A DNA stretch of 64,000 bases from Eledone cirrhosa. Lineage: Eukaryota. This document shows positions 6,483 to 49,425 of the stretch, piece after piece. The first letter of the stretch is position 1; each line of letters begins with the position of its first letter. The notes under the pieces were generated by a model. That model was not told where the DNA came from. It did not search any database and saw nothing but the letters and a program-made list of their open reading frames with translations. Location of the stretch: assembly GCA_964016885.1 (NCBI GenBank), contig OZ024743.1, positions 153,574,001-153,638,000 of the forward strand, read 5' to 3'. A program made the position numbers and the translations under genes.

Positions 6483-6830
6483 AATGAAGTAATTCCGTCG
6501 GAAAAGTCCAGGAAAAAAGAGTGCTCTATGTAGGTAACAGAGCTTAATAGTTATGTAATAAACAACATAAGGCAATTATTTCATTTACCAGTGGTTTCTT
6601 AAAGGCAAATAAATTTTGCTTTCAATCATCAGAATGAAAAAATCCTGGTGTATTTATTGGCGTTGGATTTTAAAAACCCAACACCAATAAATACACCAGG
6701 ATTTTAAAATCCAACGCCAATAAATACACCACGATTTTTTTATTCGGATGATTGAAAGCAAAATTTATTTGCTTTTAAGAAACCACTGGTAAATGAAATA
6801 ATTGCCTTATGTTGTTTATTACATAACTAT
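6483..6830. mobile_element. Fold-back element between (TA)n tracts carrying a hammerhead ribozyme (retrozyme/PLE pLTR-like)
   Basis: ~6547-6675 is the reverse complement of ~6702-6830, with a stuttered 30-bp junction between them. Confidence 0.75.
6578..6640 (-). ncRNA. Type I hammerhead ribozyme (minimal stem III)
   Basis: TTTCATT-CTGATGA-TTGAAAGCAAA/TTTGCCTTTAA-GAAAC-CACTG-GTA^AATGAAA. The inverted copy at 6737-6798 has core CGGATGA (mutated). Confidence 0.8.
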
Positions 6831-11534: not shown

Positions 11535-12175
11535 GATATATAATTAAATAAACAAGAGAGATGAACACTGATATAAATATACATGTGTTCGAATTGTAAG
11601 GATTAAGTTCGGAAAACCTTTTTTCTGAGAGATATTTAATGGTAAGAAACTACTCTGAGTTTCTAACTCACTATATATTTGTCGGCTCCATCATGTTGAG
11701 CTAATTTTAATGTCTTGTTAACCAGGCTGCTATTTTTAATGGCATGGGATTTCGAGACAAGCTGGGTTCCGTAGAAAGTGCGATAATTCTTATCGCACAC
11801 AATTCAGTCTCTAATATTTTTAGATATGAAAGGATCGCTAATTTCTCAACAACTACTGAGGAGCAGAGAAAAGTGTGGACTTCACTTAAGAAGATGTTGC
11901 GAACAGTTTCCAAAACTGTCTAGTTGTTACCAGCCTTTTGCTCGATATAGGTCTGTTATTTTTCTTAATTTACTACTTAAAATTAAGTCTGACAAACCAT
12001 ATTGCTGTAGTTAGTATTTTAGCACCCGAGCAAACCTAGTCCATACGATTTAAACACATGTATGTTTATATTAGTGTTCATCTCTCTTGTTTATTCAATT
12101 ATATTACACGGCCTGGAAAAGCTTTTTTCTTAGAGCTATTTAATGGTAACAGACTACTTTGAGTTTCTAACTCAC

Positions 12176-12180
<5 letters not shown>
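11535..12180 (+). mobile_element. ~504-bp monomer element with terminal direct repeat, short inverted arm and hammerhead
   Basis: 11611-11677 repeats at 12115-12180; 11535-11600 is inverted relative to 12040-12105; sequence related to the 536-bp family at 13069-14325. Confidence 0.7.
11848..11928 (+). ncRNA. Type I hammerhead ribozyme, probably inactivated (one A missing from GAAA)
   Basis: AACAACTA-CTGAGGA-GCA...TGC-GA-ACAGTTT/AAACTGT-C^TAGTTGTT. Confidence 0.65.
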
Positions 12181-12238
<58 letters not shown>

Positions 12239-12599: not shown

Positions 12600-12622
12600 C
12601 TATATATATATATATATATATA

Positions 12623-14325
12623 TATACAAGTTAATATAAATTAATATATATGATAAACACTAATACAATCATATAGATGTTTGCATTGTAAATGACCAAG
12701 TTACCTGGATTGAAAAATACTAATTAGATTAATACAGTTTGCCTGTCTCGATTTAAAATAATAAATCAATAAAAACAAACCCATATTGGCAATGGCCGTG
12801 GTACTTGGACAAATTTAAATTTCAAAATCCAAACCTGTTCTGTAGATAAGTTTAAACTTCAAAACCCAAATAAGTTTCGATAATTGAAAAGGTGAAAAAT
12901 TTCATCTTCTGCTCTCATCAGCAAGTACCCAGAAAATTGGTGTTTCACCTCAAAATATTTAGGAGAACTGATTGACGCACATGGTTTCTCAGCGTCTAGC
13001 TATCTCATACTCGTGCGGCTATAAATAACAGCCGTTTTCATGGGATTAATCTAATTAGTATTTTTATGTATTAATCTAATTAGTATTTTTCAATCTAGCT
13101 AACTTGGTCATTTACAATGCAAACACCTATATGATTGTATTAGTGTTTATCATATATATTAATTTATATTAACTTATATTTCACGGCTCAGAAATACTTC
13201 TTTCTTTGAGCTAATTAATTGTAAAAGACTGTTTGAGTTTATAACTCTATATATATAGTATAACGGCTCCTTTTGTTGAGCTAATTTTAATCCCATAAAA
13301 ACGGCTGTTATTTCTAGCAGCACGAGTATGAGATAGCTAGACGCTGAGAAACCATGTGCGGCAATCAGTTCTCCTAAATATTTTAAGGTGAAACATACAA
13401 ATTTTCTGGGTACTTGCTGATGAGAGCAGAAGATGGAATTTTTCACCTTTTCAATTATCGAAACTTATTTGGGTTTTGAAGTTTAAACTTATCTACGGAA
13501 CAGGTTTGGTATTTTGAAATTTAAATTTGTCCAAGTACCACGGCCATTGCCAATATGGGTTTGTTTTTATTGATTTATTATTTTAAATCGAGACAGGCAA
13601 ACTGTATTAATCTAATTAATATTTTTCAATCTAGCTAACTTGGTCATTTACAATGCAAACACCTATATGATTGTATTAGTGTTTATCATATATATTAATT
13701 TATATTAACTTATATTTCACGGCTCAGAAATACTTCTTTCTTTGAGCTAATTAATTGTAAAAGACTGTTTGAGTTTATAACTCTCTATATATAGTATAAC
13801 GGCTCCTTTTGTTGAGCTAATTTTAATCCCATAAAAACGGCTGTTATTTCTAGCAGCACGAGTATGAGATAGCTAGACGCTGAGAAACCATGTGCGTCAA
13901 TCAGTTCTCCTAAATATTTTGAGGTGAAACATACCAATTTTCTGGGTACTTGCTGATGAGAGCAGAAGATGAAATTTTTCACCTTTTCAATTATCGAAAC
14001 TTATTTGGGTTTTGAAGTTTAAACTTATCTACGGAACAGGTTTGGATTTTGAAATTTAAATTTGTCCAAGTACCACGGCCATTGCCAATATGTGTTTGTT
14101 TTTATTGATTTATTATTTTAAATCGAGACAGACAAACTGTATTAATCTAATTAGTATTGTTCAATCTAGCTAACTTGGTCATTTACAATGCAAGCACCTA
14201 TATGATTGTATTGGTGTTTATCATATATATTAATTTATATTAACTTGTATTTCACGTCTCAGAAATACTTCTTTCTTTGAGCTAATTAATTGTAAAAGAC
14301 TGTTTGAGTTTATAACTCTCTATAT
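12623..14325 (+). mobile_element. Hammerhead-containing 536-bp tandem element (about 2.35 units) preceded by an inverted ~430-bp arm
   Basis: Units start near 13069, 13605 and 14140; 12623-13048 is an inverted copy; (TA)n on both flanks; no coding capacity. Confidence 0.85.
13409..13539 (+). ncRNA. Type I hammerhead ribozyme with extended stems II and III
   Basis: GGTACTTG-CTGATGA-stem II-GAAAC-~64-nt G.U-rich hairpin-GTC^CAAGTACC. Further copies at 13945-14074 (+) and 12800-12929 (-). Confidence 0.75.
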
Positions 14326-15065
14326 ATAGTATATATATATATATATATTTGTGTGTGTGTGTGTATATATATATACACACACACACACACATATATATAT
14401 ATGTACATCTATGTGTGTGTGTGTGTATGTATATCTTTTTATATGTGTATGTATGTATATATACACACGTGGGTGTGTGTATGTGTGTACATATGTGTCT
14501 GTGTGTGATTGTAAAGACCTGACCATTTTGTAGACTTTAACACAGCATGTTGATACACACCCCCTTAACCCTTTAGCATTCACATTATTTTATATATACT
14601 ATTATATTTTCATGGTAAAGGCTTTACCTCACTTAATTATCTCACATAATATCGAATCTATGAGATTTGGGAAGTATTTATTTTGAGAACAATACCTTAA
14701 CATCAGTTTGAGCAACAAGTTACAGCCAGTTTCAACAAAAAGAGGTAGAGAATTCTGGCCGGTTTGCACACTAAAGGGTTAAAGAAAAACTTTTTGTCTG
14801 CTTAGCATATTTGCACCTTGAAAAATAAGGAGTGCCTGCTTTTGTATCCCTCAGTACCACTATGCATTTTTTTGTAAGTATAGTTTTCAAATAATCCCCA
14901 TTCTTTAAATCCATCAGCCAATGAACTCCACCCATCCCGATCACCACCTTTCCCTACCACCAGAAAATGTATTAATATCACCATAACTCATTGATGATTT
15001 CCTTCGAATGAAACAGTTCTAGTCTTGTAGATGCCATCTCTTATTATATATACATATATATGTGT

Positions 15066-15409
15066 GAAGGTACATGGCTTAGTGGTTAGAGCATTGACCT
15101 TGCAATGAAAAGGTTGTGAGTTCAATGTTTGGACCGGGTGATGTGTTGTTTCCTTGAGCAAGATACTTTATTTCACATTGCTCCAGTTTACTCAACTGTA
15201 GAAATGAGATGATAGGACTGGGGTCCCTTTCATTCCACTGCAAAGTGGTCATGGAGGTGCCACGGCAAAAAAGCACCTAGCCCACACTGTAAAGTGGACG
15301 TGTAGGCGCCTCTGAAAAAAAGCACCCAGCACTCACTGTAAATGAGGTTGGTGTTAGGAAGGGCATCCATCTGTAGAAATCAAGCCAGAATCAGTTCCCG
15401 TATGAGCAA
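15066..15409 (+). mobile_element. SINE family A
   Basis: A/B boxes, CORE-like block, longer RTE-type tail matching 6950-7110. Confidence 0.85.
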
Positions 15410-15666
15410 TATATCTATCCATCTCAAATTATTAGAGACCAAGCCTACAGAAATCTGAAAGACTTCTCTATTTAATACCATGATATTTTTGAGGATCAAA
15501 CCTTTTGTTTTACAAGACACTCTTTTGTATGATTTACTTTCAAAGCACTCCACTTTGCCTTCATGTATGTTCCAAGTTCCACTAATGAAAGAAACTTCTC
15601 GGATTCACTGAGAGAGAGAAAATTAAGAATCCATATGTATGTATATGTATATATATATATATATAA

Positions 15667-16523
15667 ATGGAAAAAATGAAATTTCATTTCTCACTCTTAG
15701 TACGGCTGATACTTAAATATAAGTATGTATACGTACATACATATATGTATACAGACGTACAGTAGTATATATACATACATGCACACATATATATATGTAC
15801 GTATGGGTTTACCAAACATTTATTATAATGTTCGGTTTGTTTGTAAACAAAGAACCCGAATTAAGCCGTACAGTGTTCGGCAACAATCGTTGCCCTTTTG
15901 TTCAACACTGACAAAGGAACGATGAGCTAGTTTCTAGCTTATTAGCTGTCATCAGCACCATATACCCTCCTGTCAATTGATTGAACGTTTGAATGTATAT
16001 ACTTTCCTTATGCATATTAACGGCTGAGCAGCCTAATTTGCATATCGAATGAGTTAGTCGGCCGGGCGTACCGAAAACGATAAATGGAAAAGATGAAATT
16101 TGATTTCTCACTCTTAGTACGGCTGATACTTAAATATAAGTATGTATACGTACATACATATATGTATACAGACATACAGTAGTATGTATATACATACATA
16201 CATGCACACACATATATATGTGAAATTTCATTTTTTCCATCTATCGTTTTCGGTACGCCCAGCCGACTAACTCATTCGATATGCAAATTAGACTGCTCAG
16301 CCGTTAATATGCATAAGGAAAGTATATACTTTCAAATGTTCAATCGATTGACAGGACGGTATACCGTGTTGATGACAGCTAATAAGCTAGAAACTAGTTC
16401 ATCGTTCCTTTGTCAGTGTTGAACAAAAGGGCAACGATGGTTTCCGAACACTGTACGGCTTAATTCGGGCTGTTTGTTTACAAACAAACCGAACATTATA
16501 ATAAATGTTTGGTAAACCCATAC

Positions 16524-16566
<43 letters not shown>

Positions 16567-16630
16567 CATGTTTGTATGTATATACATACTACTGTACGTC
16601 TGTATACATATATGTATGTACGTATACATA

Positions 16631-27554: not shown

Positions 27555-29010
27555 TTGTTCAGTAGTGGTTTTTACTTTCTAATGAAGAATTCTTCTTTAT
27601 ATTTTCGGAATTGTTCGTTGTCCGACCATATCTTAAAGAAGGGGAAAATTGTGAATTTTCCCTTTCCGCTTGTTGCGAAGTTTTCACTGCATGTGGTGTT
27701 TCTGACAGAGGTGTCTCTAATTTGTTGTTTATGTACTCGGACTCTGTCATGTAGACCCGTTCCGGTTTCACCAATGTAGTGTTCTTTACATTGTGGGCAG
27801 ATTGCACAGTAAATCAAGTTTTTGGTTTTGCAATTCATGTTTGCATTAACTTTGAAAAACTGGTTGTTTTTAAAGGAGATTTTCCCACCCTCTTCAATGT
27901 GTTCCCAAGTTCCACACCGAGGGTCCCTGCATTTCTTAACTTGCATTGCTTCATTATTAGACGTAAATTTTACCTTGGTAAGCAGTTTTTTTAGGTTGGG
28001 GGCTTGGCGTCTACTATATATTTTCGTGCATCTTTTATGAGTGCATCCGTTTTAGGGGACTGCTGGAGAATCGAGAGATATTGTTTAGTGGCTTTCTCAA
28101 TGTTGAAGTTCCTTGGATTGTGAGTGATGTCAACAGGGATAACTGTTTTTTCCATTTTATTTTGTTGCTTTGTTTTTCTCAGTGTTGTCACTGGAATGTT
28201 CTGGGCTTTGGAGATGGCTGTGTTGATGAGGTTCACCGGATATTCTTGTTTTCTAAGAAACTCTTTTAATTCATATAATCTTTTTTACTGTAGTGTGGGG
28301 TGTGTTATTATAGTGCAAATACGTTTTGCCATGTTAAAAGGAATGTTCCTTTGGATATGTGAGGGTGTGCTGATCGGAAATTCAAGTATTGGTGTGTGTC
28401 TGTTGGTTTGTAAAATAAGTCTGTTTTAATATTTCCCCCTTCTTAAATGGTAAGGATATCCAGAAACGGTAGTTCCTTTTTATTACATTCCATGGTAAAT
28501 TTTATTACTTCGTGAAGATTGTTTATGATGGAATGGAATCTTTGCAGTTCTTCTTGGCTTCTATTCCAGAAGTTGAAGCAGTCGTCTAGGTAACGTTTCC
28601 AGTTGTGATTAATGTAGGTGGGGAAGTTATGACTGAATGTTTCCTGAAGTTGGGAATATAATTTTGCCTCTAAGTGACCCATAACGAGTGTTGTATATGT
28701 TGTGGCGACTTTGGTGCCCGTAGCCGTTCCTTTTATTTGTAAATACAGTTCGTTATCAAAAAGGAAATGGTTGTTCTCCAATACTAATTTGAGTCCTTCC
28801 AAAATAAATATTTTGGGAAATCTCTCTGAAATGTAGTCTGGGTGTTTTGTAATCCATAAGTGAACAGCTTCAATTTCTAAGTCATGTGGGATGTTAGTAT
28901 ATAAACTTGTTACGTCAAAGCTGACTAAGTTTGTTTCTTGATTGTTCTGGAAGATATAATTCAGGAATTCCATATCATCTCTGATGAAGCTTGGCACTGT
29001 TTTACATAAG
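27555..29010 (-). pseudogene. Penelope-like element ORF (RT plus Cys-rich linker plus GIY-YIG), 5'-truncated and frameshifted
   Basis: LVSFDVTSLYTNIPH, GTATGT...Y..LVMG, RYLDDCF, LPFLDI; KKCRDPRC; NLIYCAICPQCKEHYIGETG...RVRVH. Confidence 0.9.
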
Positions 29011-29214
29011 GGTTTCAGTATGATGAAAAAGGGGGTTGGACTAATGTTCTTTAACCATCTTTGAAAACTCTTTAAGATAGTACCAAGTGCTTCTATGACA
29101 ATTGGGACAATCTTGATCTCATGACAGACCCAAATCCTTTTTAATTCCGATTTTAAATCCTGGTATCGGTTAATTTTCTCCTTCTGCTTTTCTTGCACTC
29201 TCGTGTGAAAGTGG

Positions 29215-32200
29215 TGTGGATATGGTGTGGCGTGCGGTGGCCGGAGCGGGGGAATGCTCGACCAGAAGGGCCAGCAGATGGCTCTCTCTCTAGTGGTGAC
29301 CAGCAAAGGTGTGGACGCGAGTTTTGGCAGCTCCCGGTGTTGGACGCACGTGGAAGAGGAGAAACCAGCAGTGGGATTTAGCGGCGCCCATGAAAAGCGG
29401 TAAGTGAGATAGCCTTTTCTAACTACAAGCTATTTCGGCACTGGAAACTGAGATCTGATTGAAAAAAAAAAAAAAAAAGCTACTGGAAAAACAGAGAGGA
29501 GTATGTTTTTTTTCTTTTTCACGTACCGCAAGACAAATTAGAAGATGGCGACAAGACTACTAACAAGCGAAGCTATCAGGGCATTTACCGGGGAAGGTGA
29601 TGTTGTCGCTTGGCTGCGAAAAGTCCGGCTGGTCGCAAGCTTGCAGAAGATAGATGTGGCTGGCCTCATGGCACTGTATCTCGAGGGGGACGCGTTGGTA
29701 CTCTTCCTTGAGTTGGACAAACACAGCCAAAGAGATGCGCAAAAGATTGAGAGGCGCATGATGGAAGCGTTCGCAGAGGGACCGTTAGCCGCTTTCGCTA
29801 AGCTGGCAAGATTTAGATGGAACGGTGAACGCGTTGACATTTTCGCAGCGGAAAAACGGCGATTGGCCATGCGAATGCACGGTGCGGTTGGCGTTCATAA
29901 ATGGATTTCCAGACGACATAGCGGTGAAACTGCAGCAAGTCCCGGGTTACAAAGAAATGGAAATGCGTTCACTGGTGGAACAAGCCCGGATAATAGCAGA
30001 AGATGCCAAGAAGAGTGTTGCGGTGATAGCAACTACAGAGGCTCAAGACAGCTGGCAGCGAAATGGTGAAAGAGAGGCAACCACGGCACGCGGTCGCCCG
30101 CGAACATTTAGAGGTCGCTGTTTTCGGTGCCAGGGTCCGCACATGGCTAGAGACTGCAGAGAGTCAAGGCCGGAATAATATGCTACCGGTGTAAGCGACC
30201 AGGCCACATCGCTATTAACTGCGACCAGGGAAACGATCCAAAGGGAACTACTGCGCCGGTAGTTGCCCTTACGAGTGGAGGCGCTGCCCGTGGTGGAAGT
30301 CTTCGTGAGGGGAAAGCCACAGCGAGCCCTCGTGGACACGGGCTGTACGACGACACTGGTGTCCGCGGGGGTGGCGCAAAGGTGGAGAGGGAAGAGCAGC
30401 GTAAGGGCAGTCGACGGCAGGAAAATTGAATGCCGAGGTCGCAGCGAGATGGAAATAGCGGTACGGGGAAGGAAAATAAGGCTTTCTGCCATCGTAGTCG
30501 ACAACGTGGTGGATGGGATCGGCGTGGTTATGGGAATGGACGCAATTGGCCGTCTAGGAGGCGTCACAGTGAACAACGTCGGTGTGTCGTTTGGCGCCGC
30601 TGCATCGGTATGCGCTGTGAGTACGCGATAGGAGAACCAGAAGGCGCACGAGGAGAAAAACCTCGCTTACACACTGCAGGACAAAGACTTCAAGGCCGTG
30701 TTTGATGGGCAATGATGGGTTGTTGAGTGGTACTGGAAGGGAGAACACCAACACTGAAGACCAAAGTGGGCTGCTATCAACACACATTGAAGGGAAACAT
30801 TAGGAGCGAGTTCGAGCGAGAGGTAGAGAGATGGATTGAGGAGGGCATACTGCTTCCCTGGAAAGAGGAGGTGAAGTGCGGAGTATTGCCGTTAATGGCG
30901 GTGGCGCAACCCACGAAGTACAAGGTGAGGCCGGTGCTGGACTTTCGGGAGCTGAACGAGCACGTGTCATGCCACACGGGTGGCGAGGTCACGGATATCT
31001 GTGGGGAAACCCTGCGTGAGTGGAGACGCATGACGGGGGCTTCAGCAATCGTAGATCTAAAGTCGGCATACTTGCAATTGCATATAGATGAGAAGCTCTG
31101 GCAGTATCAGCTGGTCAGGTACAAGGGCCGGACATATTGCCTGACCAGGCTCGGTTTCGGGCTGAGCTCCGCACCGAAGATCATGGTGGCGGTCCTCAAG
31201 ACCATTCTGGGAAAGGCCGACAAGATGAAGAGGGCCACTAACTCCTATATTGACGACATCCTAGTGGACGAGTCTGTGGTGTCGGCGGCGGAGGTCACGA
31301 GCCATTTACAGGGGTATGGACTGGCTGCGAAGCCGTCAGAAGCGTTGGAGGGAGGAGCCGCGCTGGGACTTAGGTTACGGCGAGACAGGACGGGCGTCTT
31401 GGTATTCCAGAGGGGAAATGAAGTTCCAGAACTGGGCCCAAGTATGAGTATGCGGGAGCTTTTCTCGGTGTGTGGAAAGTTGGTGGGTCACTACCCGATT
31501 GTCGGCTGACCGAGTCGGATCTGAAAGGGTTGCATGACATGCACCACATGGGAGTGGATAGGAGCCTGTTCCTAGCCAGGAGAATCGACTCGGACGTTAA
31601 CAGACACAGTGTTCAAAGAGTGGTTAGAGGCTGCGTCCGATGACAGTCCATTGATCCCGGCCCGGGTGTGCACGAAACGGGAAGCCTCCCGGTGGATCGC
31701 GACTGGAAGCGATTGCGGTGGATGTAACGCACTACCGACAGGGAACGTACCTCTCGATGGTCGATTGTGGACCAGGACGGATGGCGATATGGAGGGAGAT
31801 GAAGACTGAAACGGCCGAGGAAATCATGCGGACGTTGAGAGAGGTGTTCTTGGAGCTGGCCCCTGTGGACGAACTGCTGATGGACAACAGCGCAGCGTTC
31901 CGCTCGGAGGCGCTGAGGGAGATGCTCGATGGATGGAAGGTGGACCGTTTCTTCAGAGTAGCGCACAGGCTGAGCTATAATGGAATTGTGGAGCGACACC
32001 ACCGCACGATCAAGGCAATGGCGGAGCGGGGCCATATCTCACCAATGGAGGCAGTGTTCTGGTACAACATGTCCCCTCGGGTAGGACAGGTCGAGGAATC
32101 GGTGCCACACAGAGCAGTATTCAGATACAAGTGGCGGTACCCGTGCACCCCACCACAATGTCCAGTAGGGAGAGAGAGTGCATTCGTGCAGGTGGGCGAA

Positions 32201-32712
32201 GAAGTCTGGGTTGAGCCCCCAGATGCACGTTGCACATCTCAATGGGGAAGGGGAACGGTGACGGCCGTAAATTCCCAGAACAATGTGTCCGTGGACGGAG
32301 TACCACGTCATGTCATGGATGTCCGTAGAAAAACTGTGTCAACGGACTCCGAGGAAGAGGAAACCCAAAGTGCTGCCCCAACACTGCGGAGATCGCAAAA
32401 AGTCGTAAACCACCAACCTGGACAGCAGACTTTCATATGCAGAAGGACGAGGGGGAAATTGATCCTTGAGATCAGGGGGGGGGCGTGTGAGTGTGGTGTG
32501 GCGTGCGGTGGCCGGAAGCGGAGGAGTACTCGACCGGAAGGGTGCTTGGCTGGAAGGATGCTCGACCGGAAGGGCCAGCAGATGGGTCTCTCTCTAGTGG
32601 TGACCAGCTCCCGGTGTTAAGGAGTTGGACGCACGTGGAAGAGGAGAAACCAGCAGTGGGATTTAGCCGCGCCTATGAAAAGCGTTAAGTGAAATAGCTT
32701 TTTCTAACCACA
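29215..32712 (+). mobile_element. Compact Gypsy/Ty3 LTR retrotransposon (3.5 kb), degenerate
   Basis: LTRs 29215-29427 and 32486-32712 (TG...CA); TSD AGTGG/AGGGG; PPT AGGGGGGGGG at 32474; GC-rich relative to the host. Confidence 0.9.
29547..32390 (+). pseudogene. gag-pol remnant: Gag with two CCHC knuckles, protease, RT, integrase; RNase H missing
   Basis: CFRCQGPHMARDC and CYRCKRPGHIAINC; ALVDTGC; VDLKSAY...YIDDILV; HHMG..., DVTHY...DNSAAF...NGIVERHHRTIK; order PR-RT-IN; stops and frameshifts. Confidence 0.88.
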
Positions 32713-36694: not shown

Positions 36695-37194
<500 letters not shown>

Positions 37195-38141: not shown

Positions 38142-39436
38142 GTTTCTTTTATTTGCCACCAGGGCATCAAAAGTGGGACAAGTACAAAGGGGGCAGTTTA
38201 CACAAAAAGGCGTCCTCAATAAGGAGGAGGCAATAACAAAATATAAAAATAAAATAAAATATAACAAAAAATAAAATTTATAACAAAATCCTCAATAGAG
38301 AGGGGTCGCACACACCCCCGAAAAAAGTGTGCAACCCTTTTCCTCAGGAGCACAGAGAGGGGGTGCTCCCTCGTTCCTTCCTCCTTTCCACCTACAGGCT
38401 TATGTAAAGAGAAGGCCCATTCACACGGGCCATTCTCGCCACTTTCACCCACCTTTCATAAAAACGACTGGGGTGGAGCACCTCTCTCTCCATCCTGATC
38501 CTTCTTCCGAAATGATATCGGAAGAAACGGACCAGTTGTTGGCCAGAGAGAAAGGTGCCTGACCTCAGTCCTTTCAGACGCGTCCACCATATAACCTCTT
38601 TCGCCATGGCTATTACGCACAGAAACACCGCCTCTGCTTCATCTTTGAAGGGGGGAGGCGGCTTGACCATTACAATAGACTCGGTGGTCAACCGGATCGG
38701 TCCCACCCTTGACAGCAGTTGTTCGACATAGCCCCACAGATCGGCTACGCCCGAGCAGTGTACCAATGCGTGTGCAACGGTTTCCTCGTCGCACACGCAT
38801 CTGGGACAGATCTTTTTGGCGGGGTCCCTACCCGGTCGCCCGTGTCTGTAGAGCCTTTCTCGAACGGGTAAAGCCCCTCGGTAGCACTGCCAGGCCAGGG
38901 ACTTCTGGAAGTTGTCCATAGGTCCCGGGCTGAATGTCCTACCGAACAGGCTGGCCAGTTCGTCCTCCTCCATGTCTAGGGCTTCTCCGAGGGCGTCGTC
39001 GCACCTGCTGCGTACCCGCCCTCTATAGAATGTTGCGGTGTAGTCTCCACTGATAACCGGATCCGCCTGCCAGAGGGCGGTGAGCGCCTGGGCACACTCA
39101 GTGTGCCAGGCGCCCAGTTTTCTCGGTCTTTGCTTGACCCAGGATTGCAGCTCGGTGAGTGAGACGAGTCTGGGAAAGGTTCGTCTCACAAACGAGGCCC
39201 ACACCGGTTGACCGGTGAGGAATACGTAGAGGTGCCGTAGCCTTAATGCGTGTTTACGCATCATTAGCCACGGCATCCCCAGCCCTCCTTTCGAAGGGTG
39301 TTGACAGCAGATGGATATCCTCACCATAGGAGCCCGCCTCTTCCAAAAGAATTGGAAGAGTGCGCGCTCCATCTTGGTGAGGGTTTCCCTTGGGCAGGGC
39401 ACTACGGTCAGGCGGTAGTAGATGACGGACGCTATG
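38142..39436 (-). mobile_element. 5'-truncated L1/Tx1-clade LINE (ORF2 C-terminus with zinc knuckle, 3' UTR)
   Basis: Open frame 39436-38392 with FFWK...GGLGMP and CPRC...ETVAHALVHC...W; GC-rich; AATAAAAG end; flanked by (TA)n. Confidence 0.85.
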
Positions 39437-40157
39437 AGTAAATATATATATATATTGTTATACTTGGGGAGGATCATATTTGTGTGATAATATTGCCAGA
39501 ATTAATAACAGAACTCACTCACTGTTTGGTTGGTTTTCGCTTCTGTGTCCTTTATATCGGTTAATTTAATTTATTCGGTCCTCAATGTTACCATTGACTG
39601 ACCAACGGTCAAAAATACAGATACAATATAGACACAAACACATATATATAGTCTAACAAAGTTTCTTCGTTGCACATATGCAACATCGTCATAGGTGCTA
39701 TTATGTTTCCTCACGTTGCAATGTATTCCTACGCCATCTTTATTTAGTCTGTTTATTTATTTGTTTATTTGTTTATTTTTTTTGTCTTCTCTGCGCATGC
39801 TTTTGCGTGTGTGTATAGTGTTTTGTTTGATGTGTGTTCATGTTTGGGTGACTGTGTATTGGTTATTATATTCTATCTTAGTTTACTAGTGTGTGTTTAC
39901 ATGTGTTTGTTGTTATTGTGCTTGTGTATGTATTTATTTATTTATACTTCTCTTAGGTCAGTGTTATTTGTTTGGGTGGTGTTGTTATTCCATTCATTTT
40001 TTCTGTTTAGCATTGGCCTTCTAAGTTCTATTTCGCTGGCCTCTCTGATTTGCCTATCTGCTGGGTCATTTCTATGTTTAGATATTATTCTATGTTGTCT
40101 ATGTTACCATCGTGTTGTTGTCTGGCATGTTCGTATAACTAATATATATATATATAC

Positions 40158-46991: not shown

Positions 46992-49425
46992 AAGGCCAAA
47001 AAGCAGGCTTGGAAAGTATGGCGGGATGGGGGAAGTAGAGAAGACTATCAAGTGGCCAGGAGGGAAGCTAAGAGACAAGTGTACTTCGCAAGAAGGAAAG
47101 CAGAGGAAAGAAAGTTTCAAGCATGTTCTACAACACGAGGACCAAAAACGTGAGGTGTTCAGGATTGCTAGGCAATGTGTCAAGGAAAAACCGTGATATT
47201 GTCGGGGAGAAGTGTGTACTTAATGATGACGGTGTACTTGCCATCACCGATGCTGATAAGAAGGTAGCTTGGAAGTGTCCACTACGAAAGGCTACTAAAT
47301 GAGGAGAATAAATGGGAGAAAGAGACAGTCCTCCCCCACATCGACCCAATAGAGGGACCAGCAGTGTTAGTCCGAGGGTAGTATAATAAGTAAGGCAATC
47401 AAAGATATGAAGACGGGTAAGGCGGCTGGGCCTTCGGAAATAGTTGCTGAGATGCTGAAGGCATCTGGTACAGTGGGACACACCATGGTCACCCAGATAG
47501 TTAACCAAGTCGTACAGAATGGGGTTGTTCTGAAGGACTGGCGTAGCAGCATCATCATTAACTGTTATAAGGGTAAAGGAGATGCCATAGATAGGAGTAA
47601 CTATAGAGGCATTAAATTAATCGACCAGGTCATGAAGGTCACGGAAAAAGTAATAGCGCAACTAATCAGAGAGAGAATTGATCTAGATGAAATGCAGTTC
47701 GGGTTTGTGTCAGGCAAAAGTACCACAGACGCTCTTTTCATTGTACGACAACTACAGGAGAAGTACCTAGCTAAAAGTAAACCCCTATACTTAGCTTTTG
47801 TCGACTTGGAGAAAGCCTTCAACAGAGTCCCCCGTTCCATTATCTGGTGGGCTCTTAGAAAACTAGGTATTGACGAATGGCTTGTGAGAGTTATACAAGC
47901 CATGTATAAAGAAACAGTCAGCAAGGTTAGAATTAACAACGAATATAGTGAAGAGTTTAGCGTAAACGTTGGCGTCCATCAGGGCTCTTTTCTTAGCCCC
48001 CTACTATTTATTATTGCCCTAGAGGCTATAACAGAGGAGTTCAAGACCGGCTGCCCATGGGAACTCCTATACGCAGATGACCTAACGCTCATAGCTGAAT
48101 CAATGGCCGAGCTAGAGAAGAAATTCCAAACATGGAAGCATGGCCTAGAATCAAAAGGCCTTAAAATTAACCTGGCTAAGACTAAAGTTCTAGTTTGTAA
48201 GAAAGAAAATAAGGCGGCGGTCCCTTCAGGGAAGTGGCCATGCTCAGTGTGTAGGAAAGGCGTAGGTAGAAACTCCATTTTGTGTCCCAAATGCAAAGTA
48301 TGAGTGCATAAAAGATGTAGTGGGATCACAGGTAAGCTAACTAAGAACATAGATTTTACATGTGGCCGGTGCTCTGGTGCAATAAGTAGCAGCAAGTGCC
48401 CACAAAAATACTAGCTCTTTCAACTGCGCAGAGGGTTCTATAGAAATAGTGGACAGCTTCCGTTACCTGGGTGACAAAATCAGCAGTGGGGGAGGGTGCT
48501 CTGAAAGTACAGTAGCTAGAGTCAGAACTGGATGGAAAAGTTCAGAGAGCTTATACCACTATTAGCCGCTAAAGGGTTCTCCCTAAAAATGAAAGGCAGG
48601 TTGTATGATGCCTGCATACGAACAGCAATGTTGCATAGCAGTGAGACCTGGGCATTGTGTGCAGAGGATATATGCAGACTAGAGAGGAACGAAGCTTGCA
48701 TGCTCCGCTGGATGTGTAATAGTAATATACGTGAACGGCAAAGCAAAAACGAACTAAGGAAAAAATTAGAAATAAGAGGGATCAGATGTTATTTACTCGA
48801 GAGAAGACTACGTTGGTATGGTCATGTGATGCGCATGAAAGACGATAGCTGTATAACAAAGTGCAGGGCAATAAAGATAGACGGTAGCCATGGAGTAGGC
48901 AGACCCAGAAAAACCTGGGACGAGCTGATAAATTCCGACCTCACACACTTACACCTCTCCAAGACAATGTCACTGGACCGAGACCTTTGGCGGTACTCAG
49001 TAATAGAGAAGACCCGCCTTACCTAAATACAAAGTAAAACCTACTACAGTCAGTAGGCATCTCTAACAAAATACACCCTCGTCCCACCACCCCCACCCCA
49101 TCCACACCGCCCCTTCAATGTAAAGTTATGTTGGTGCCACAACAACCAGGTCAAAACAAATGAGATCGTGTAGGTGTCACGACAAAAAAAACACACAGTC
49201 CACGCTGTAATGTGGCCGTGTAGGCAACATGGTAAAAACCTCCCAGCCCCACACTGTAAATGTGGTTGGTGTTAGGAAGGGCAACCAGCTGTAGAAAACC
49301 CGCCAGACAGTCCTATGCGAGCAAGACAATCACTCTTGCCTCAAGTGGGAAATAGCCCCGTCCAAACCCATGCAAGCATGGAACACGGACGTTAAACGTT
49401 GATGATGATGATGATGATGATGATG
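46992..49425 (+). mobile_element. 5'-truncated RTE LINE, relatively young, with few disruptions
   Basis: RT motifs GKAAGPSEI, NYRGIKL, QFGF, FVDLEKAF, GVHQGS.LSPLLF, LLYADDL, FRYLG; C-terminal LRWYGHVMR, GRPRKTW; (GAT)n tail; starts at (TA)n. Confidence 0.92.

What the first reader, a model, noticed from the sequence alone, without database searches (positions are those of the whole stretch)
12623..14325. 536-bp tandem monomer with three intact hammerheads having a long stem III
Seen: about 2.35 direct units plus an inverted arm; each hammerhead has an 8-bp stem I (GGTACTTG/CAAGTACC), GUC site, and a ~64-nt G.U-rich hairpin as stem III. PLE-type hammerheads typically have a tiny palindromic stem III and need dimerisation. 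Inference: this one may cleave as a monomer, and successive cuts at 13531 and 14066 would release a ~535-nt unit able to circularise; the multimer would fit reverse transcription around a circle.
Basis: partly seen in the sequence, partly recalled or inferred. Interest (0 to 1): 0.75.

Follow-up and report, generated by a model that had tools for sequence, protein, structure and literature searches.

The report
Retrozyme with self-duplicated hammerhead arm
This is one insertion of an abundant, protein-free jumping repeat whose predicted self-cutting RNA motif has an unusually long arm made of two tandem copies of the motif's own back half, and it likely borrows the copying enzyme of a Penelope-type jumping gene in the same genome that carries the same pair of end signals; it is a known kind of element in a new form.

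Summary
In detail: 2.37 direct 535/536-bp units plus a 0.81-unit inverted arm in (TA)n, with three consensus type I hammerheads. It is one copy of a dispersed family (812 exact motif matches, control 0). Of 68 two-armed insertions, 56 end at two different fixed sites, one per arm, each just before a GCTC..GAGCT hairpin. A young Penelope-like element with Hydra-type motifs and intact 844-aa frames has the same twin hairpins and ends: the likely enzyme donor. The long stem III is a 37-nt tandem duplication of the hammerhead's 3' half; sister subfamilies have one copy. Changes shared between loci keep its pairing (13 of 15), private ones mostly break it (36 of 40). Monomer-active long-helix hammerheads are already in print. 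No RNA evidence was obtained.

The parts
12601..12626 (.). Left (TA)n target tract
12624..13049 (-). Inverted arm, 0.81 unit; outer end at fixed site S1 (184 nt after the cut site); BLAST extends it to 13058
12800..12929 (-). Hammerhead of the inverted arm (core 12921-12915, predicted cut after 12808; apex loop UACA here)
13045..13066 (+). Arm junction: 21-nt duplicate of the start of the direct arm, overlapping the inverted arm by about 5 nt of microhomology
   Evidence: (family D9)
13067..14333 (+). Direct arm, 2.37 units (13067-13602, 13603-14137, 14138-14333); outer end at fixed site S2 (267 nt after the cut site); no reading frame over 37 codons on this strand
13185..13212 (+). End-signal hairpin 1 (GGCUC..GAGCU), just 3' of S1; repeated at 13721-13748 and, with one change, 14256-14283
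13265..13282 (+). End-signal hairpin 2, just 3' of S2; repeated at 13801-13818
13409..13539 (+). Type I hammerhead 1 (core 13417-13423, GAAA 13460, predicted cut after 13531; one extra U in stem III)
13532..14066 (+). 535-nt monomer that two cuts would release (predicted)
13945..14074 (+). Type I hammerhead 2 (core 13953-13959, GAAA 13996, predicted cut after 14066)
13954..13996 (+). Predicted inhibitory 6-bp helix: 13954-13959 (core) with 13991-13996 (stem II 3' strand and G12); the active stem II has 2 bp
13996..14066 (+). Long stem III = 34 nt (13996-14029) + 3 nt + 34 nt (14033-14066), halves 26/34 identical; inner remnants form a C(UACG)G loop at 14029-14034
14330..14348 (.). Right (TA)n target tract
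11538..12181 (+). Neighbouring insertion of a related 504-bp family (about 65% identical unit, short stem III; this copy lacks one A of GAAA), used as outgroup

Best explanation
The feature is a two-armed insertion, in a TA tract, of a non-coding 535-nt hammerhead repeat (a non-LTR retrozyme) that is likely copied by the reverse transcriptase-endonuclease of a Hydra-type Penelope-like element, and its long stem III is a tandem duplication of the hammerhead's own 3' half that is predicted to let one copy fold without a partner, although cleavage would likely be slow or need refolding help. Steps: (1) inferred: a tandem copy is transcribed; (2) inferred: successive hammerheads cut after GUC once the core leaves the competing helix, perhaps on protein binding, and the monomer is ligated to a circle as in other retrozymes; (3) shown at DNA level: copies end at two fixed sites just 5' of two similar hairpins, in (TA)n, one site per arm; inferred: the Penelope protein binds the hairpins, cuts both strands of a TA tract and primes cDNA from each cut end at one of the two sites; (4) shown: arms run through one to four cut sites and stop at variable places; inferred: copying goes round the circle; (5) shown: the two truncated ends meet head to head with microhomology or short filler.
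For: Ends: 197 of 213 arm ends lie at S1 or S2; 182 of these 197 run into TA; of 68 head-to-head insertions in 131 places 56 are S1+S2, 1 S1+S1, 1 S2+S2, 10 have an end elsewhere or at the locus edge. Donor: a 5-kb tandem element (copies 99-100% alike over the 293-bp query, 1627 first-look candidates) carries a small hammerhead and two ACGGCTC..GAGCT hairpins 92 nt apart; its copies end before these hairpins in TA, and 5 of 5 second arms seen end at the first hairpin. Its 844-aa frame has YRDD, a C-terminal VY..YIG, CxCX5C, CxxC and CxH, as listed for Hydra (PMC8557442 section 11); 13 of 63 matches cover all 844 residues without a stop. Two internal start sites and extension of both strands are shown in vitro for another PLE (PMC11167929). 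Selection on the hammerhead shape: four main stem I sequences, all 8/8 paired (43, 34, 22, 18 places); positions 3-8 are C-G in 85 places and U-A in 54. Stem III: shared changes 13 keep/2 break, private 4 keep/36 break, p=1.4e-7 (171 of 209 motifs, 106 places). Duplication: long form 71 nt = 34+3+34, halves 31/34 alike in L140 with inner GUC-UGC-GAAAC intact; 23 single and 7 shorter forms among 212 hammerheads. One template: both window arms share two alleles seen in 5 of 125 and 4 of 104 other places, never together.
Against: No RNA, cleavage or circle was observed. The active fold is predicted 6.9 kcal/mol above the core-sequestering fold; the model ignores tertiary contacts, so the gap may be overstated. 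Sister lineages spread with non-consensus cores: position 4 is A in 24 and C in 12 places, the 10.1-11.1 pair is broken in 26, U3.G8 in 12; in the sample picked 3' of the cut only 3 of 36 places had a fully consensus hammerhead. Some arrays mix subfamilies (L004, L102, L271, L025: 12-20 within-array differences common elsewhere), and one rare allele is in the window's two full units but not in the partial unit or the inverted arm; neither fits one simple circle. All pairing-preserving changes in the long helix are one-sided; the 3' arm does not vary, and the search pattern fixed it in part of the sample. The UNCG loop is UACA in about 30 of 106 places. The donor link rests on short motifs and end behaviour: no longer homology was shown, Pfam gave no family for the protein, its pairwise match to another PLE RT is weak (E=0.017), it has RWR and DKA where Hydra has RWK and DKT, and other PLE families were sampled thinly (42 loci). 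Hammerhead mutants did not affect insertion of the anole PLE in vitro (PMC11167929).
Confidence: 0.6

Rival explanations
1. Same Penelope passenger, but catalysis is dispensable: the template is an uncut tandem transcript, and the three-way junction with its long helix is kept as a structural or protein-binding element.
For: Whole lineages with U4A, U4C, U3.G8 or a broken 10.1-11.1 pair are spread over many places and still keep stems I and III; mosaic arrays; the 3' arm of stem III is nearly invariant among units only 60-74% identical; insertion by the anole PLE does not need cleavage in vitro (PMC11167929); Naiads proliferate without canonical hammerheads (PMC8557442).
Against: C3-G8 to U3-A8 covariation in 54 places and GUC/GAAAC conservation point to selection on the core; natural 2-bp stems II and U4C variants can be functional (PMC3088659); array-wide rare alleles in 40 of 131 multi-copy places.
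Confidence: 0.27
2. One reading: the hammerhead cleaves freely and efficiently as a monomer, and the predicted competing helix is a modelling artefact.
For: Consensus core, 8-bp stem I, stem III pair probabilities 0.83-0.95; stem II of two pairs is common in active hammerheads (PMC3088659); a close relative (L012 type) has the active fold as its minimum.
Against: Stem II pairs have probability 0.0 in the ensemble and the gap (median 7.0) exceeds that of the other well-sampled subfamilies (1.9-5.4); I noted no canonical loop I-loop II contact, though this was not tested.
Confidence: 0.11
3. A local satellite or DNA-level duplication in which the hammerhead is a chance match.
For: Long arrays of relatives exist (at least 8 matches spaced 518 bp apart).
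Against: Dispersed copies on many contigs with fixed outer ends in TA; strand-specific G.U-tolerant conservation and stem I covariation.
Confidence: 0.02

Closest known systems
Metazoan non-LTR retrozymes (Cervera and de la Pena 2020, PMC7229834; Li, Clavereau and Pollet 2026, 10.64898/2026.07.22.740005)
   Same: Non-coding, low-GC (31%) tandem units, one type I hammerhead per unit, dispersed in a genome with PLEs.
   Different: Unit 535 nt (reported RNAs 170-400 nt); 67-nt stem III made by duplication of the hammerhead's 3' half; two-armed insertions with two fixed ends; a candidate donor PLE identified by shared end hairpins; RNA not shown here.
Penelope-like element pLTR hammerheads and insertion structure (PMC4209133; PMC8557442; PMC11167929)
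   Same: Partial tandem plus inverted 5'-truncated arm, optional 'tail' between two start sites, (TA)n targets, U3-A8 core variant.
   Different: No ORF; tail about 83 nt instead of 30-40; helix III long, as in fungal and protist PLE hammerheads and unlike the minimal animal ones.
Hydra clade of PLEs (PMC8557442; Hydra-1_Obim, 2507 bp, (TA)n, listed in its supplementary file 1)
   Same: The candidate donor has a single ORF, C-terminal GIY-YIG-like motif, CxCX5C linker, CxxC and CxH, a hammerhead and TA targets.
   Different: Donor unit is about 5 kb (Hydra 'generally <3 kb'), RWR and DKA in place of RWK and DKT; I did not compare it with Hydra-1_Obim or place it on a tree. The window's element is a passenger, not a Hydra copy.
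Engineered helix III extension that mimics the dimer (PMC4209133)
   Same: A single hammerhead given the helix that two palindromic copies would form.
   Different: Here it arose naturally by tandem duplication; activity untested.

Membership tests
Type I hammerhead ribozyme | Core CUGANGA / GAAA / UH with A15.1-U16.1 and G10.1-C11.1 | tested here: met
   All three window copies
Type I hammerhead ribozyme | Three stems closing the core, open stem I, supported by covariation | tested here: met
   Stem I 8 bp with compensated variants; stem III conserved by pairing; stem II only 2 bp
Type I hammerhead ribozyme | Active fold is the favoured fold | tested here: not met
   Core-sequestering fold 6.9 kcal/mol lower in nearest-neighbour prediction; prediction only, tertiary contacts ignored
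Type I hammerhead ribozyme | Match to an Rfam hammerhead model | tested here: not met
   No hit at gathering score or E<=10; long insertions in stems II and III may explain it
Type I hammerhead ribozyme | Self-cleavage after H17 | not testable with these tools
   Needs in vitro assay
Non-LTR retrozyme | Tandem non-coding units each with a type I hammerhead (two consecutive) | tested here: met
   longest frame 37 codons on the hammerhead strand
Non-LTR retrozyme | Dispersed multi-copy family without LTR structure | tested here: met
Non-LTR retrozyme | Expressed as linear and circular monomers | not testable with these tools
   Only contig sets of unknown kind were available
Non-autonomous Penelope-like element | Partial tandem plus inverted 5'-truncated arm, two 3' ends (tail), microsatellite target | tested here: met
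   features as described in PMC8557442
Non-autonomous Penelope-like element | Cis signals shared with an autonomous PLE of the same genome | tested here: met
   Twin hairpins at the copy ends of a 5-kb element with intact ORFs; short motifs only
Non-autonomous Penelope-like element | Mobilisation in trans by that protein | not testable with these tools
   Needs biochemical or cell assay
Hydra clade (candidate donor only) | C-terminal GIY-YIG with CxCX5C linker, CxxC and CxH; hammerhead; (TA)n | tested here: met
   against PMC8557442 section 11
Hydra clade (candidate donor only) | RWK and DKT motifs | tested here: inconclusive
   RWR and DKA found
Hydra clade (candidate donor only) | Groups with Hydra RTs in a phylogeny | not tested
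   No reference proteins were fetched

The most novel reading that the evidence does not exclude
A retrozyme lineage built its own dimer: by duplicating the 3' half of its hammerhead it fixed the intermolecular stem III inside one copy, turned the spare catalytic residues into a UNCG cap, and in the window's subfamily gained a core-masking helix, so that the ribozyme is a switch released by the Hydra-type Penelope protein that recognises the twin hairpins. The genome would then hold a graded natural series (short, single, doubled stem III; consensus, covaried and broken cores) together with an intact donor enzyme, enough to test directly whether hammerhead cleavage and RNA circles are needed for Penelope-type retrotransposition.
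Probability: 0.25. Interest if true: 0.72.

Novelty: new variant of a known kind. Interest (0 to 1): 0.5.

Why it matters
The role of hammerheads in Penelope-like elements and the enzyme and route by which animal retrozymes move are described as unresolved in the papers read (PMC8557442, PMC11167929, PMC4209133). This family offers a matched kit: a passenger RNA with two mapped ends, a young candidate donor with intact frames and the same end hairpins, and natural hammerhead variants from consensus to broken that all spread. The duplicated stem III is a traceable natural route from a palindromic helix to a long intramolecular one. The general system is known and was reported many times in this genome by the scan.

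Tried and rejected
Expression: no RNA holder listed; three contig sets of unknown kind from one sample hold the family but show nothing about RNA. Genomic footprint of cleavage: unselected arms stop within 50 nt 3' of the cut more often than elsewhere (22 of 51 vs 48 of 348, p=3e-6, bin chosen after seeing the data, one duplicated place counted twice; later laps 11 of 59 vs 107 of 755, not significant). An independent sample picked 3' of the cut gave 18 of 75 vs 50 of 367 (p=0.034), with 16 of 18 stops at 14-35 nt, at and just past an 11-nt palindrome, not at the cut: fold-back joining explains it as well, so it is not used. A-to-I editing as source of the G.U pairs: A>G is 13 of 60 array-wide private changes vs 42 of 569 one-copy changes (p=0.001), but A>G against T>C is borderline (p=0.06-0.11; one search included a segmental duplication): inconclusive. 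Direction of the duplication: best tree roots on single forms (10 lnL above the free search; p-AU 0.93; root on family E p=0.048, on family C p=0.098; 27 rows, three left out); the free tree nested them among doubles, so deletion is not excluded; L024 shows one secondary collapse. One search used a mis-cut outgroup and one search mislabelled minus-strand ends; both discarded. End hairpins alone fold weakly (z -2.4, -1.2; -0.3 and +0.6 in family C). Donor search among 30 + 12 GIY-YIG loci found no PLE frame tied to the hairpins; the donor came from a hairpin that happened to lie in L214. Pol III transcription looks unlikely: three T5 runs in the unit (terminator rule recalled). Literature searches listed no paper on cephalopod retrozymes or on a duplicated helix III; Lunse et al. 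2017 was not held and the preprint's supplements were not seen, so either may bear on novelty.

Full report
Observation. The window holds a direct arm of 2.37 units (13067-14333; units 536 and 535 bp) and an inverted arm of 0.81 unit (12624-13049, BLAST to 13058), head to head between two TA tracts. A 21-nt duplicate of the direct arm's start lies at the junction. There are three type I hammerheads with consensus cores, an 8-bp stem I and GUC at 13531, 14066 and 12808. It left out that stem II has two pairs, that stem III starts with two pairs and a 2x2 U.U loop, and that the predicted best fold pairs U4-A9 of the core with the stem II 3' strand and G12. Forcing the active fold costs 6.9 kcal/mol in each hammerhead and in the circular monomer; the same masking appears in the whole direct arm. 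Rfam has no hit.

Family. The genome (3.0 Gb; earlier notes call it octopus-like, which I did not test) holds many copies: 3608 first-look candidates, 40 scored; 812 exact matches to a stem III motif and 829 to a motif 3' of the cut, controls 0. Related subfamilies of 500-566 bp are 60-98% identical, and the neighbouring 504-bp family aligns over its whole length at 54-68%. In 131 places, 197 of 213 arm ends fall at two sites, S1 and S2, 184 and 267 nt after the cut in this subfamily, each a few bases before a GCTC..GAGCT hairpin; 182 of 197 run into TA. Of 68 head-to-head insertions 56 use one of each site, 1 uses S1 twice, 1 S2 twice, and 10 have another or an unseen end. The window is an S1+S2 case. 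This is the PLE layout of partial tandem, inverted arm and tail (PMC8557442, passages), and it matches two internal start sites and extension of both strands shown in vitro (PMC11167929, parts 1-2 of 4).

Candidate donor. Thirty GIY-YIG loci and twelve longer stretches showed no PLE frame tied to the hairpins, but one stretch held a similar hairpin behind a small hammerhead. That led to a young 5-kb tandem element (40 scored copies 99-100% alike over 293 bp, 1627 candidates) with two ACGGCTC..GAGCT hairpins 92 nt apart. Its copies end just before these hairpins in TA; the 20 loci were picked at the second site, and the 5 second arms seen all end at the first. Its 844-aa frame has RT and endonuclease motifs and the CxCX5C, CxxC and CxH motifs given for the Hydra clade (PMC8557442 section 11; a (TA)n-targeting Hydra-1_Obim is listed in its supplement). 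Thirteen of 63 matches cover the whole frame without a stop. Against: no Pfam hit, weak pairwise match to another PLE RT, RWR/DKA in place of RWK/DKT, and no test against other Hydra-type families. Earlier scan notes had pointed to shared hairpins and to a Hydra-type element.

The long stem III. It is 71 nt from GAAAC to GUC, exactly 34+3+34. Sister subfamilies have one 34-nt copy or shorter forms (179 double, 23 single, 7 short, 3 intermediate among 212). In L140 the halves are 31/34 alike and the inner GUC-UGC-GAAAC is intact; in the window they are 26/34 alike and the inner part gives a C(UACG)G loop (extra stability of UNCG loops is recalled). Each half contains a wobble palindrome, so the hairpin of half 1 with half 2 is the helix two single copies would form with each other. 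Selection acts on this pairing: over 24 pairs in 171 of 209 motifs (38 of other lengths dropped; 106 places), changes shared by three or more places keep pairing in 13 of 15 cases, private ones in 4 of 40, two-place ones in 5 of 10. The kept changes are G.U to A-U or U.G to C-G swaps, apart from two at the apex boundary, which marks the hammerhead strand as RNA; all are one-sided, since the 3' arm is invariant. The single 34-nt form already folds a hairpin of up to 13 bp, so the duplication was not needed for monomer folding. Trees without stem III favour single to double but do not prove it.

Is it catalytic? Stem I covaries across four main types and the 3-8 pair switches from C-G (85 places) to U-A (54), a known natural covariation (PMC4209133 parts 1-2 of 4; PMC3088659 passages and section 8). 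Yet other lineages carry A or C at position 4 (36 places), U3.G8 (12) or a broken 10.1-11.1 pair (26), and in the sample picked 3' of the cut 3 of 36 places were fully consensus. The window's subfamily has a consensus core but the largest predicted masking among well-sampled groups (median 7.0 vs 1.9-5.4 kcal/mol), while a close relative has none. The anole PLE hammerhead cleaves only with protein and is dispensable for insertion in vitro. I therefore take slow or assisted cleavage as most likely, dispensable cleavage as the main rival.

Circle or linear multimer? Arms cross 0, 1, 2, 3, 4 cut sites in 43, 104, 41, 7, 2 cases (sampling favours crossing one), so the template is circular or uncut. 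Both window arms share two rare alleles that no other sampled place has together, and 40 of 131 multi-copy places have array-wide private alleles, which fits one monomer copied repeatedly. Mosaic arrays and one allele confined to the two full units do not. An excess of arm stops just 3' of the cut was weaker in a second sample and sits at a palindrome; it is not counted. An A>G excess among array-wide changes is inconclusive. No RNA data were available.

Comparison and novelty. It meets the sequence criteria of a non-LTR retrozyme (PMC7229834 passages; PMC7761336 passages; preprint 10.64898/2026.07.22.740005 part 1 of 5 and passages) and of a non-autonomous PLE derivative. Searches listed nothing on cephalopod retrozymes or a duplicated helix III. 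The scan has many notes on this kind of element in this genome, none matching this hammerhead by sequence or by the words for the duplication. Verdict: real, a new variant of a known kind, interest 0.5.

Noticed in passing
window 11538-12181: Related 504-bp hammerhead family (1937 first-look candidates) with its own small inverted arm and a 7-bp stem III; this copy lacks one A of GAAA.
   Followed up: yes
window 15663-16583: Another head-to-head element in TA-rich DNA: 417-bp period, 361-nt inverted arms, no hammerhead found by my relaxed scan.
   Followed up: no
window 6586-6632 (-): Weak hammerhead-like match (consensus core, 7-bp stem I, poor stem III) near a 33-bp tandem repeat.
   Followed up: no
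window 36872-36935 (+), and a similar stretch near 15075-15140: tRNA-like heads, probably of a tRNA-derived SINE (Rfam tRNA 30.9 bits at the first; the second seen by eye only).
   Followed up: no
window 28446-29429 (-), 30727-32617 (+), 38395-39501 (-), 47371-48300 (+): Fragments of other retroelements: RVT_1; RVT_1 with DUF7047; integrase core; zf-RVT; RVT_1 (several below the curated cut-off).
   Followed up: no
L051-L080 (family C, young): Copies 94-99% alike with core UUGAUAU (U3-A8 plus U at position 9), an 83-nt stem II domain and a perfect 27-bp stem III.
   Followed up: partly
L218-L287: Single-stem subfamilies nearly all carry A at core position 4, two also C at position 6, yet are dispersed over many places.
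   Followed up: partly
G000:C2:19387320-19391186 (L165): Family E array of at least 8 near-identical 518-bp units with array-wide private changes.
   Followed up: partly
L308-L310: Young 5-kb Hydra-type PLE in tandem and head-to-head copies, with a Gly/Asn-rich repeat between RT and endonuclease.
   Followed up: partly
L004, L012, L018: Insertions that join different subfamilies in tandem, as opposite arms, or side by side in one TA tract.
   Followed up: partly
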